64,000 nucleotides of DNA from Escherichia phage WG01. Positions 38,454-39,606 of the stretch are shown here, one piece after another. Every line of letters begins with the position of its first letter. The stretch's first letter is position 1. The position numbers were made by a program, and so were the translations under genes. The stretch is taken from the sequence record NC_031928.1, one strand, 5' to 3'. The notes under the pieces are model-generated. The model did no database searches. It was not told the origin of the DNA and saw only the letters and a program-made list of their open reading frames with translations.

Positions 38454-38762
38454 CTATTTTATTCCGCGTGATGCAATCGTATTCTGCCGTTTAACGCCAG
38501 TTTGTTTAAAGTTATGATTGTCGAGTTGATCGGTACGAGCAACTCCGAATGATGATTTAATCTTAGCTTTAGATCCTTTAGTTATAGAAATAAACATCTC
38601 GGGAGCCCCTTTCTTAAAGTCCGAAGCAATTACTTCAACACCGTTCTTAGCAAGTGACCTCAGAATTGCTTCCACATACTCATCATCAAGACCTGCTTGA
38701 GTATGAATAACGAATGTCTTTGGTGCAGCCGCTTCATTGATAAATTCTTGGTATGATTTCAT
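38454..38762 (-). CDS. internal-protein-like packaged protein (CTS-tagged, 102 aa)
   Basis: N-terminus MKSYQEFINE. Confidence 0.6.
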   Translation of the reverse strand: MKSYQEFINEAAAPKTFVIHTQAGLDDEYVEAILRSLAKNGVEVIASDFKKGAPEMFISITKGSKAKIKSSFGVARTDQLDNHNFKQTGVKRQNTIASRGIK

Positions 38763-38784
38763 TTTATTTTCCTAATTAATTTTG

Positions 38785-38822
38785 ATGAGATAATAGTACC
38801 ACAACCCTATTTAAAAGTAAAC
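38785..38822 (-). promoter_or_regulatory. early promoter cassette
   Basis: GTTTAC -35 and TACTAT -10-like. Confidence 0.45.
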
Positions 38823-39095
38823 TCATTTTAAATAAATTGCATATTTTTTATAACCCGCTGTCTCATGACGAAGACCCTTATCATTAGCAAAACGCTCAAT
38901 GTTGTTAATTTGATTCTGGTCAAGTTCAGAGATGTCAAACACGAAAAAGTTACGTTTGTTGCCTAAAGTTACGTGATTAGTCAAATCGATGTTATAGAGA
39001 TGATTTATATTATCAATCATGGTCTTAACAGATTTGTTAATTTTTACTTCTTCATTAAGAATAGATTCAGCGATAAATTCTTGGTATGATTTCAT
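38823..39095 (-). CDS. internal-protein-like packaged protein (CTS-tagged, 90 aa)
   Basis: N-terminus MKSYQEFIAE. Confidence 0.6.
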   Translation of the reverse strand: MKSYQEFIAESILNEEVKINKSVKTMIDNINHLYNIDLTNHVTLGNKRNFFVFDISELDQNQINNIERFANDKGLRHETAGYKKYAIYLK

Positions 39096-39096
39096 T

Positions 39097-39318
39097 TTAT
39101 TCTACGCCTGCGGCTTTCAAAAGTTTTTTAAGATTGGCTATGCCGCCAGCAGAAAACGTGACCTTGCCACCTTTTTCATTGATAGAGCCAGTCAATTTAG
39201 CAAGCTTATCACTAGGGACTTTTTTAAAATCAGCCAGTATGCCATCAAAGGTTTTTGTAACAACCGGCAGTTGGTCATGTTTTTTGGCTTCTGTAATAAA
39301 TTCTTGATAAGCTTTCAT
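39097..39318 (-). CDS. internal-protein-like packaged protein (CTS-tagged, 73 aa)
   Basis: N-terminus MKAYQEFITE. Confidence 0.6.
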   Translation of the reverse strand: MKAYQEFITEAKKHDQLPVVTKTFDGILADFKKVPSDKLAKLTGSINEKGGKVTFSAGGIANLKKLLKAAGVE

Positions 39319-39345
39319 TTTTGATTTCCGTTTGGTTAGTTTGTT

Positions 39346-39385
39346 TTGATAGGTCTATAGTATCATGCCTATAGACCTTGTAAAC
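39346..39385 (-). promoter_or_regulatory. early promoter cassette
   Basis: GTTTACA -35; dyad GGTCTATAG/CTATAGACC. Confidence 0.55.
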
Positions 39386-39396
39386 AACTTTTTAAA

Positions 39397-39606
39397 TTAT
39401 TTTAGCCATGAAGAATTTTCAGAGACCCAGCTATCTATATCTGATTGAGGGCCAAAGAAGTAGGCAACCCCATTAGATAACTCTCCTGAAAGCCAATTTA
39501 TACCTTTCAGGCTTTCTTTAAATTCTTCAGGAGTACAAGAAACCTCTATTGCCACCGAAGAGGCGGATTCCATTGCTTCCGTTAAGAATTCGTTGTAGGT
39601 TTTCAT
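39397..39606 (-). CDS. internal-protein-like packaged protein (CTS-tagged, 69 aa)
   Basis: N-terminus [10 protein letters not shown]; ATG overlaps 57B stop. Confidence 0.6.

What the first reader, a model, noticed from the sequence alone, without database searches (positions are those of the whole stretch)
38454..39606. Four tandem genes with the capsid-targeting N-terminus at the ipI locus
Four consecutive minus-strand ORFs (38454..38762, 38823..39095, 39097..39318, 39397..39606) start with MK(S/A/T)YQEFI(N/A/T)E or [10 protein letters not shown] and then diverge completely. In T4 this ~10-residue tag (MKTYQEFIAE) directs internal proteins IPI/II/III into the prohead and is removed by the gp21 protease after I/L-x-E. 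T4 carries a single ipI gene here, and IPI is an injected anti-restriction protein. These four are therefore candidate virion-packaged, host-injected effectors, most with their own promoter cassette.
Basis: partly seen in the sequence, partly recalled or inferred. Interest (0 to 1): 0.65.

Follow-up and report, generated by a model that had tools for sequence, protein, structure and literature searches.

The report
Known T-even internal-protein gene array
These are four small phage genes whose products carry the tag that loads proteins into a T4-type phage head for injection into the host; the class has been known since 1994, three of the four already have names (Ip7, Ip8, Ip9), and what they act on in the host is still unknown.

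Summary
Four minus-strand ORFs at the stated coordinates start with MK(S/A/T)Y(Q/N)EF(I/L)xE and share nothing else.

The array is not new. The proteins are identical to four consecutive genes of Escherichia phage WG01 (Dhakavirus). Three are orthologues of Ip7, Ip9 and Ip8 of phage RB15 (90%, 79% and 80% identity). RB15's 1994 GenBank record already shows four tandem ip genes between 57B and tRNA.4.

The fourth (69 aa, WG01 gp147) is called "hypothetical" or left unannotated in every record seen. Here it proves to be a conserved, tag-bearing, distant relative of Ip6.

The array is a mosaic. Breakpoints against relatives fall in the early-promoter/hairpin cassettes and in the tag-coding repeats. 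Only two of the four genes have their own cassette.

Most likely mechanism (inferred, not shown): the tag targets the protein to the prohead core, gp21 cleaves after Glu10, the protein is injected with the DNA, and it blocks a strain-specific host defence. T4 Ip1, Ip2 and Ip3 each inhibit a distinct GmrSD enzyme, but no target is known for these four.

Side findings: the Ip9 domain occurs without the tag in siphoviruses, and the window holds eight tagged ORFs in all.

The parts
39603..40058 (-). Gene 57B = Acb1 (anti-CBASS phosphodiesterase family). It is the upstream boundary of the ipI locus, and its stop codon overlaps the ORF4 start (ATGA).
   Evidence: Pfam PF23474 Acb1, E 8.4e-59; sequence; same position as T4 57B.
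39397..39606 (-). ORF4, 69 aa, tag [10 protein letters not shown]. Identical to WG01 gp147, 'hypothetical protein'. A divergent Ip6-superfamily internal protein. The mature form (59 aa) is acidic, pI 4.1.
   Evidence: phrog_23867, unknown function; tag conserved down to 53% identity; dN/dS 0.06-0.22; AF2 pLDDT 80.8; Foldseek hit to VR7 Ip6, E 7.5e-4, TM 0.71; a 78-aa protein bridges the two families, z 9.5-11.6.
39319..39396 (-). Cassette 1: T4-type early promoter (TTTACA, 16 nt spacer, TACTAT; 39384 to 39357) with an overlapping perfect 10-bp inverted repeat (39351-39360 / 39369-39378). It drives Ip8 and Ip9.
   Evidence: I24; fold -19.1 kcal/mol, z -5.4.
39097..39318 (-). ORF3 = Ip8, 73 aa, tag MKAYQEFITE. 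Mature form is basic, pI 9.85.
   Evidence: 80% identity to RB15 Ip8; phrog_8765, internal virion protein; 106 phage records; WG01 'internal virion protein'.
38823..39095 (-). ORF2 = Ip9, 90 aa, tag MKSYQEFIAE. It starts 1 nt after the Ip8 stop and has no cassette of its own.
   Evidence: 79% identity to RB15 Ip9; phrog_7673; 172 phage records; tagless homologues in siphoviruses; AF2 pLDDT 78.
38763..38822 (-). Cassette 2: early promoter GTTTAC...TACTAT with a degenerate inverted repeat. It drives Ip7 and is a direct repeat of cassette 3 (85% over 41 nt).
   Evidence: D2; no stable fold; near-identical to the cassette upstream of T4 ipI.
38454..38762 (-). ORF1 = Ip7, 102 aa, tag MKSYQEFINE. 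Mature form is basic, pI 9.85. It lies on a 395-bp module (38422-38816) that is absent from IME281 and IME341.
   Evidence: 90% identity to RB15 Ip7; phrog_2667; 282 phage records; insertion breakpoints; the identical protein sits in a two-gene array on a metagenomic contig.
38385..38453 (-). Cassette 3: early promoter GTTTAC...TACTAT with an overlapping 12-bp hairpin, upstream of trna.4.
   Evidence: D2, D3; -16.4 kcal/mol, z -2.4; matches the T4 cassette between ipI and trna.4.
38199..38384 (-). trna.4 (61-aa predicted membrane protein). It is the downstream boundary of the ipI locus.
   Evidence: phrog_1692; annotated trna.4 in JS98 and MX01.

Best explanation
This is the hypervariable ipI locus of a JS98-like T-even phage, almost certainly Escherichia phage WG01. 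It holds four internal-protein (ip) genes in the order 57B/Acb1, ORF4 (Ip6-like), Ip8, Ip9, Ip7, trna.4. Shown here: each protein starts with the capsid targeting sequence; three are orthologues of the named proteins Ip7, Ip8 and Ip9; the fourth is a conserved, tagged, distant relative of Ip6. Also shown: the array is a mosaic of modules, and the junctions with relatives fall in the repeated early-promoter/hairpin cassettes and in the 30-36 nt tag-coding repeats. Inferred from T4 biology: the proteins are made early, and probably late by read-through from an upstream late promoter. The tag (Tyr4 and Phe7 for targeting, Ile/Leu8 and Glu10 for processing) docks them on the gp22/gp67/gp68 scaffolding core. 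The gp21 protease cleaves after Glu10, and the mature 59-92 aa proteins stay in the head and are injected with the DNA. Inferred by analogy with T4 Ip1, Ip2 and Ip3: each neutralises one specific variant of a host defence the moment the DNA enters. The most likely targets are modification-dependent (type IV, GmrSD-family) nucleases, but this is the least certain step.
For: ORFs and tags; the tag cannot be chance. Identity to WG01 genes AND75816-AND75819, three of them annotated as internal head/virion proteins. Orthology to RB15 Ip7/Ip9/Ip8 and the RB15 four-gene array. PHROG internal head/virion protein families at E 7e-24 to 2e-56. ORF4: tag conserved down to 53% identity; dN/dS 0.06-0.22; linked to Ip6 by fold and transitive sequence similarity; always abuts Acb1. 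All four tags carry the residues that mutagenesis showed to matter (positions 4 and 7 for targeting, 8 and 10 for cleavage; PMC9026906; site scan). The same genus encodes gp67, gp68, the gp21 protease and the gp22 scaffold (JS98). The cassettes match those flanking T4 ipI and Repoila's description as quoted in PMC2839356. Breakpoints fall in the cassettes and tag repeats. T4 IPs are made both early and late (PMC6071114). Ip1, Ip2 and Ip3 each inhibit a distinct GmrSD (PMC12373910). Tagless Ip9 homologues among the early genes of siphoviruses argue that the domain is an effector rather than a structural protein.
Against: I found no virion proteomics or cleavage data for Ip7, Ip8, Ip9 or ORF4. 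No canonical late promoter (TATAAATA) lies within the locus; the nearest upstream one on this strand is at 43036. There is no sequence or fold similarity to T4 IPI, IPII or any solved structure, and no Pfam, NCBIfam or PADLOC family. Silas et al. tested ten ip genes of T4-like phages against five further GmrSD systems and found no inhibition. Dhakaviruses lack glucosyltransferases and are predicted to carry arabinosylated 5-hydroxycytosine, so the T4 targets need not apply here. Ip7/8/9 families are also shared by phages of different genera.
Confidence: 0.8

Rival explanations
1. The proteins act mainly as early cytoplasmic effectors made in the infected cell from the strong early promoters. 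Packaging through the tag is secondary or only a bonus. This rival does not exclude the main explanation.
For: Two of the three transcription units start at T4-type early promoters. T4 IPs are made in large amounts within 1-3 min of infection (PMC6071114). The Ip9 domain works without any tag in siphoviruses, where it sits among early genes. There is no late promoter inside the locus.
Against: The tag is kept under protein-level selection in four unrelated proteins and across each family, which is hard to explain if packaging did not matter. For T4 Ip1 the injected protein is the active form (PMC12373910).
Confidence: 0.25
2. They are generic basic DNA-condensing or charge-balancing head-filling proteins with no specific host target.
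For: Mature Ip7 and Ip8 are basic (pI 9.85, net charge +6). This is the classical view of the T4 IPs, mentioned in PMC6071114.
Against: Mature ORF4 is acidic (pI 4.1, net -6) and Ip9 is near neutral. The families are patchily distributed and shuffled, with 0-4 per locus and 15 families in 37 loci, unlike a housekeeping structural role. T4 Ip1, Ip2 and Ip3 all turned out to have specific targets. Ip9 and ORF4 are predicted to fold into compact domains.
Confidence: 0.1
3. ORF4 is not a packaged protein. Its tag would be a relic of recombination through the tag-coding repeat, and it would really be an accessory partner of Acb1, with which it is translationally coupled.
For: ORF4-family genes always abut 57B/Acb1 with no cassette between them. 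The tag-coding DNA is a recombination junction. No database calls ORF4 an internal protein.
Against: The tag, including the cleavage residues L/I-x-E and the following 'AME', is conserved in family members down to 53% identity, while the body diverges. ORF4 is also related to Ip6, a tagged protein.
Confidence: 0.1

Closest known systems
Phage RB15 ip5-ip9-ip7-ip8 array (GenBank Z35082; Repoila et al. 1994, EMBO J 13:4181, paper not readable here)
   Same: Same locus (57B to tRNA.4), the same number of tandem tagged genes (four), three shared families (Ip7 90%, Ip9 79%, Ip8 80% identity) and the same promoter/inverted-repeat cassettes.
   Different: The order is permuted: RB15 has Ip5-Ip9-Ip7-Ip8 and the window has ORF4-Ip8-Ip9-Ip7. 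Ip5 is replaced by the unrelated ORF4. The host phage belongs to another genus (Dhakavirus rather than Tequatrovirus).
T4 IPI / IPI* (ipI), injected inhibitor of GmrSD from E. coli CT596
   Same: Same genomic slot, with nearly identical flanking cassettes. It also has an N-terminal leader ending in I-x-E that is removed by gp21.
   Different: No sequence similarity in the mature part. The IPI leader reads MKTFKEFTST...ITE, interpreted as the 19-residue propeptide, versus 10 residues here. T4 has one gene at this locus, not four. No target is known for the four here.
T4 IPII and IPIII (second IP locus)
   Same: Their 10-residue tag MKTYQEFIAE is identical or nearly identical to the tags here. 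They are injected, and each inhibits a specific GmrSD variant (PMC12373910).
   Different: They lie at a different locus, between e and denV. Their mature parts are unrelated to the four. The window has its own IPIII orthologue at 26225-26821 (87% identity).
Ip6 (annotated in phage vB_EcoM_VR7, UniProt E5FII6)
   Same: ORF4 shares its predicted fold (Foldseek E 7.5e-4, TM 0.71). The two also share a C-terminal GP..I(D/E).W...N motif, and 78-aa proteins bridge them. Both are tagged and lie at the ipI locus.
   Different: Direct identity is only about 22-24%. ORF4 is 69 aa rather than 77 and is acidic. It always abuts 57B, whereas Ip6-type genes sit at the distal end of the array.
PeSL cassettes (promoter-early stem-loops; Arbiol et al. 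2010, PMC2839356)
   Same: These are composite promoter plus stem-loop elements that flank accessory genes and act as recombination sites for modular shuffling. The breakpoints here fall inside them.
   Different: According to Arbiol et al., the T-even IP elements are analogues of the RB49/phi1 PeSLs, not homologues. They are built on T4 early promoters and have weaker, AT-rich stems.

Membership tests
T4-type internal proteins (CTS-tagged, prohead-packaged) | N-terminal capsid targeting sequence with the functional residues: aromatic residue at position 4 and Phe at 7 for targeting, Ile/Leu at 8 and Glu at 10 for gp21 cleavage | tested here: met
   All four have Y4, F7, I/L8 and E10, followed by A or S. 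The determinants are those summarised in PMC9026906. T4 IPII and IPIII carry MKTYQEFIAE.
T4-type internal proteins (CTS-tagged, prohead-packaged) | Located in one of the two hypervariable IP loci (57B to trna.4, or e to denV) | tested here: met
   The four lie between 57B/Acb1 and trna.4, where T4 has ipI.
T4-type internal proteins (CTS-tagged, prohead-packaged) | Homology of the mature part to a named Ip family | tested here: met
   Ip7 90%, Ip9 79% and Ip8 80% identity to the RB15 proteins. ORF4 is only remotely related to Ip6, through an intermediate.
T4-type internal proteins (CTS-tagged, prohead-packaged) | The phage encodes the prohead protease gp21 and the scaffolding core (gp22, gp67, gp68) | tested here: inconclusive
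   These genes lie outside the 64-kb window. They are present and annotated in JS98, a phage of the same genus, and are core genes of all T4 relatives (PMC9026906).
T4-type internal proteins (CTS-tagged, prohead-packaged) | Physical presence in the virion as the cleaved mature form, and injection into the host | not testable with these tools
   No proteomic data were found in the searchable literature.
Injected inhibitors of GmrSD type IV restriction enzymes (T4 Ip1, Ip2, Ip3) | Sequence or fold similarity to IPI*, IPII or IPIII | tested here: not met
   No similarity beyond the tag. No PDB sequence hits. No significant PDB fold hits for ORF4 or Ip9. Ip1, Ip2 and Ip3 are themselves unrelated to one another, so this failure says little about function.
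Injected inhibitors of GmrSD type IV restriction enzymes (T4 Ip1, Ip2, Ip3) | Demonstrated inhibition of a GmrSD-family enzyme | not testable with these tools
   [quoted passage not shown] I could not establish whether Ip7, Ip8 and Ip9 were among the ten; a search of the supplements found nothing.
IP-locus promoter/stem-loop shuffling cassettes (PeSL-like) | Intergenic early promoter with an overlapping inverted repeat, repeated on both sides of the modules, with recombination breakpoints inside | tested here: met
   There are three cassettes with a GTTTAC...TACTAT core. Two have stable hairpins (z -5.4 and -2.4) and one is degenerate. Breakpoints against IME281, IME341 and MX01 fall in the cassettes and in the tag-coding repeats. 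Only 2 of the 4 ip genes are directly preceded by a cassette.

The most novel reading that the evidence does not exclude
The phage loads its head with up to eight different tagged proteins, four of which no database recognises as internal proteins (ORF4/gp147, and the ORFs at 35989, 26904 and 25060). At least one payload, the Ip9 domain, would be a portable counter-defence module delivered in three ways: packaged through the tag in T-even phages, as a free early protein in Seuratvirus and Guernseyvirinae siphoviruses, and embedded in an 861-aa mosaic protein of Ackermannviridae. These phage groups are not close relatives, and I recall that they modify their DNA differently. If so, the Ip9 target would be a widespread enterobacterial defence rather than a nuclease specific for glucosyl-hmC.
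Probability: 0.3. Interest if true: 0.55.

Novelty: already known. Interest (0 to 1): 0.25.

Why it matters
Internal proteins are the first phage proteins to meet host immunity, because they enter the cell with the DNA. Targets are known for only three of the more than 30 described variants, all three from T4 and all GmrSD enzymes. The array is therefore a ready list of four small candidate anti-defence proteins (59-92 aa when mature), but as a discovery it only confirms existing annotation. Three things are added here. First, WG01 gp147 and its orthologues should be annotated as Ip6-like internal proteins; the JS98, JS10 and IME08 records annotate no gene for them. Second, the breakpoint map shows how the array was assembled. 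Third, the Ip9 domain also exists without the tag in unrelated phages, which gives a simple way to test its function without packaging.

Tried and rejected
- **Protein family libraries:** Pfam, NCBIfam and PADLOC scans of the four proteins gave nothing above noise.
- **Solved structures by sequence:** the PDB search gave only chance hits, with best E values of 0.002-1.5.
- **Fold searches:** Foldseek of the ORF4 and Ip9 models against the PDB gave no match at E <= 0.001. The best hits were generic small alpha/beta domains (an acyltransferase N-terminal domain, SepF, Smr), which I rejected as uninformative.
- **Direct ORF4 to Ip6 link:** the profile comparison is weak on its own (hhalign probability 24.5%). 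I accept it only together with the fold hit and the bridging 78-aa proteins.
- **Literature:** the search on 'Ip7/Ip8/Ip9' returned only unrelated uses of the abbreviations. Three searches for virion proteomics of these proteins found nothing relevant: two returned no papers and one returned four papers that I did not open. Repoila 1994 (PMC395341) and the JS98 genome paper (PMC2168658) are not held. What I say about Repoila 1994 therefore rests on GenBank Z35082, on later papers quoting it, and on my own recollection of its abstract.
- **Silas et al. supplements:** a search for these sequences found nothing.
- **WG01 record:** it is not in the local phage collection, which is why no record covered the full locus. 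I first read that as a 'unique combination' and dropped the idea.
- **Census regex:** the first versions missed variant or GTG-start tags and mis-trimmed N-termini. This was corrected.
- **Late promoter:** none was found inside the locus.
- **The 861-aa Ackermannviridae protein:** its context is replication and recombination genes, not virion genes, so I did not pursue it as an internal protein.
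Full report
**Observation**

- 38454-38762, 102 aa, MKSYQEFINE
- 38823-39095, 90 aa, MKSYQEFIAE
- 39097-39318, 73 aa, MKAYQEFITE
- 39397-39606, 69 aa, [10 protein letters not shown]

Beyond residue 11-12 they share no detectable similarity. The motif occurs eight times in the window, always at the ATG of a minus-strand ORF. The chance expectation is about 7e-6, and 300 Markov simulations gave no copy. The tag codons differ synonymously between genes, so selection acts on the peptide.

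**Where the window comes from**

The region is from a JS98-like T-even phage of the genus Dhakavirus. All four proteins are identical to consecutive genes of Escherichia phage WG01, accessions AND75816-AND75819 / YP_009323343-YP_009323346. There they are annotated as internal head protein / 'Ip7 protein', internal head protein, internal virion protein and 'hypothetical protein BOW89_gp147'. WG01 is not in the local phage collection. That explains why no record there covered the whole locus.

**What the genes are**

- The locus lies between 57B (Pfam Acb1, E 8e-59) and trna.4. T4 has its single ipI gene in that slot.
- ORF1, ORF2 and ORF3 are orthologues of Ip7 (90% identity), Ip9 (79%) and Ip8 (80%) of phage RB15.
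- The RB15 entry, GenBank Z35082, already shows four tandem genes, ip5-ip9-ip7-ip8, between 57B and tRNA.4.
- PHROGs places the three in 'internal head/virion protein' families at E 7e-24 to 2e-56.
- They occur in 282, 172 and 106 phage records respectively.
- Later papers state that Repoila et al. 1994 described ten such ORFs, and that more than 30 IP variants were known by 2007 (PMC12373910; PMC2839356).

So 'four tandem tagged genes at the ipI locus' is a published pattern.

**ORF4, the only unrecognised member**

- It belongs to phrog_23867, of unknown function.
- The family has six clusters among 5.8 billion proteins and 27 phage records, all labelled 'hypothetical' or left unannotated.
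- JS98, JS10 and IME08 list no gene for it. The JS98 copy starts with GTG.
- It is a real gene: dN/dS is 0.06-0.22.
- The tag plus the following 'AME' are conserved down to 53% identity, while the body diverges.
- An AlphaFold model (pLDDT 80.8) shows the tag helix followed by a small beta-alpha-beta-beta-alpha domain.
- The model has no PDB neighbour. In the viral structure library it matches 'Ip6 putative internal head protein' of phage VR7 (E 7.5e-4, TM 0.71).
- With tags removed, the direct profile match to the Ip6 family is weak (hhalign probability 24.5%, E 8e-4). A 78-aa protein type bridges both families (z 9.7 to Ip6, z 9.5-11.6 to ORF4, 0 of 2000 shuffles).

I conclude that ORF4 is a divergent member of the Ip6 superfamily.

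**Architecture and origin of the array**

- Three intergenic cassettes share a GTTTAC...TACTAT early-promoter core with an overlapping inverted repeat.
- The hairpins upstream of Ip8 and trna.4 are stable (z -5.4 and -2.4). The one upstream of Ip7 is degenerate.
- The cassettes are close copies of those flanking T4 ipI. They fit the 'PeSL-like' elements that Arbiol et al. attribute to Repoila's IP loci.
- Only Ip8 and Ip7 are directly preceded by a cassette. ORF4 overlaps the 57B stop (ATGA), and Ip9 starts 1 nt after the Ip8 stop.
- The transcription units are therefore [57A-57B-ORF4], [Ip8-Ip9] and [Ip7].
- Relative to IME281 and IME341, the window carries a 395-bp insertion (38816-38422) holding Ip7. 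Both ends lie inside the directly repeated cassettes.
- Relative to MX01, the junctions lie at the end of 57B and inside the 36-nt tag-coding repeats.
- UFV-AREG1 has the Ip8-Ip9-Ip7 trio in the same order. A metagenomic contig carries the identical Ip7 in a two-gene array.
- In a census of 37 loci, the number of tagged ORFs per ipI locus was 0 (5 loci), 1 (14), 2 (12), 3 (5) and 4 (the window only). They fall into 15 families.

Four is the top of the range seen here, but RB15 is a precedent.

**Mechanism**

*Shown.* All four tags carry the residues that mutagenesis of the IPIII tag identified: positions 4 and 7 for targeting, 8 and 10 for cleavage (PMC9026906). A phage of the same genus encodes gp67, gp68, the gp21 protease and the gp22 scaffold.

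*Inferred from T4.* The tag docks the protein on the prohead core. gp21 cuts after Glu10, leaving mature proteins of 92, 80, 63 and 59 residues (pI 9.85, 7.98, 9.85 and 4.10). These are then injected with the DNA. Early promoters are consistent with this, because T4 IPs are made both early and late (PMC6071114). Late synthesis would need read-through from the only upstream late promoter, at 43036.

*Inferred by analogy.* T4 Ip1, Ip2 and Ip3 each block one GmrSD type IV restriction variant, with no cross-protection (PMC12373910). The four proteins here probably each disarm one variant of a host defence.

[quoted passage not shown] The four have no similarity to IPI, IPII or any solved structure. 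Dhakaviruses lack glucosyltransferases and are predicted to carry arabinosylated 5-hydroxycytosine rather than glucosyl-hmC (PMC2993671; PMC13326640).

**An observation that bears on function**

- The Ip9 domain (residues about 19-90) occurs without any tag in siphoviruses. Examples are CR01 of the Guernseyvirinae (50% identity) and the Seuratvirus phages SHIN8 and ECP2304 (47% and 40%).
- In those phages it sits among small early genes, near a helicase gene in CR01 and a primase gene in SHIN8.
- An exhaustive HMMER search found only ten representatives in 1.84 billion proteins. They are a mix of tagged and tagless forms, plus one 861-aa Ackermannviridae protein carrying the domain at residues 663-734.
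- The tag is therefore an add-on to a free-standing domain. This favours an effector role over a structural one, and offers a way to test function without packaging.

**Rivals**

- An early cytoplasmic role with packaging as a bonus is compatible with the data and not exclusive of the main explanation (confidence 0.25).
- A generic DNA-condensing role fits basic Ip7 and Ip8. It does not fit acidic ORF4, the patchy shuffled distribution, or the T4 precedent (0.1).
- ORF4 as an unpackaged partner of Acb1 is argued against by its conserved tag and its link to Ip6 (0.1).

- MKTYQEFIAE is the leader of T4 IPII and IPIII. IPI has a different N-terminus, MKTFKEFTST...ITE, which I read as the 19-residue propeptide; the review gives 10-19 residues for IP propeptides.
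- Two of the four genes, not most, have their own cassette.

**Verdict**

The modest additions are the reassignment of ORF4/gp147 to the internal proteins, the breakpoint map, and the tagless Ip9 relatives. Interest is low to moderate, because these are good candidates for the anti-defence screens now being run on ip genes but would not surprise a specialist.

Noticed in passing
window 35989-36453 (-), with TATAAATA at 36480-36487: A fifth tagged ORF (154 aa, [10 protein letters not shown]) lies outside both classical IP loci, beyond the tRNA genes. A canonical late promoter and a terminator-like GC hairpin with a T-run sit just upstream of it. It belongs to phrog_2280 (unknown function), occurs in 509 phage records and was 'hypothetical' or unannotated in all 12 records listed. 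It is a candidate for a widespread, unrecognised internal protein.
   Followed up: partly
window 25060-25317 (-): A tagged 85-aa ORF (MKTYQEFITE) lies downstream of denV, outside the classical e-to-denV IP locus. It has no PHROG family apart from the tag and occurs in only 5 phage records, labelled 'hypothetical' where the record is annotated.
   Followed up: partly
window 26225-27302 (-): This is the second IP locus, between e (27289-27783, 74% identity to T4 e) and denV (25728-26144, 97%). The ORF at 26225-26821 is a true IPIII orthologue (87% identity). The slot where T4 has ipII (here next to e) holds an unrelated tagged 132-aa ORF (26904-27302, phrog_15461, unknown function). A late promoter lies at 26912.
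   Followed up: partly
loci L041 (CR01 3007-3225), L043 (SHIN8 2992-3216), L042 (ECP2304 about 3060-3282, unannotated): Tagless homologues of the Ip9 domain (40-50% identity) occur in Guernseyvirinae and Seuratvirus siphoviruses, inside clusters of small early genes. SHIN8's copy is annotated 'internal head protein' purely by homology, which is probably misleading for a siphovirus.
   Followed up: yes
protein P0032 (861 aa); locus L044 (phage EP75) 5284-7671: A large mosaic Ackermannviridae protein (phrog_3867, unknown function) carries an Ip9-like domain at residues 663-734 (PHROG E 1.7e-10). The gene lies among replication and recombination genes. Coverage varies widely between the 315 phage records that hold it.
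   Followed up: partly
protein P0023 (Escherichia phage OLB35, annotated 'ip7 protein', 77 aa): The sequence is a chimera of the middle of Ip7 and the C-terminal 33 residues of Ip9, and it has no tag. It looks like the product of a recombination or deletion between adjacent ip genes.
   Followed up: no
window 39603-40058 (-), and the JS98, MX01 and IME281 records: Gene 57B is labelled 'RNA ligase' in RefSeq and PHROGs, but it matches Pfam Acb1 (anti-CBASS) over its full length at E 8e-59. ORF4-family genes are always fused to its stop codon, so a probable anti-defence gene and a tagged protein are co-transcribed.
   Followed up: partly
locus L002/L005 (JS98, record positions 72636-72842); also JS10 and IME08: The ORF4 orthologue is not annotated in these reference genomes. 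In JS98 it starts with GTG (VKSYKEFLTE...). The JS98 record annotates no gene in the roughly 650 bp between trna.4 and 57B, although two tagged ORFs lie there (69 and 97 aa).
   Followed up: yes
window 43014 (+) and 43036 (-): Two canonical late promoters (TATAAATA) sit back to back on opposite strands, 22 bp apart. The minus-strand one is the only candidate source of late read-through transcription into genes 2, 3, 1, 57A, 57B and the ip array.
   Followed up: no
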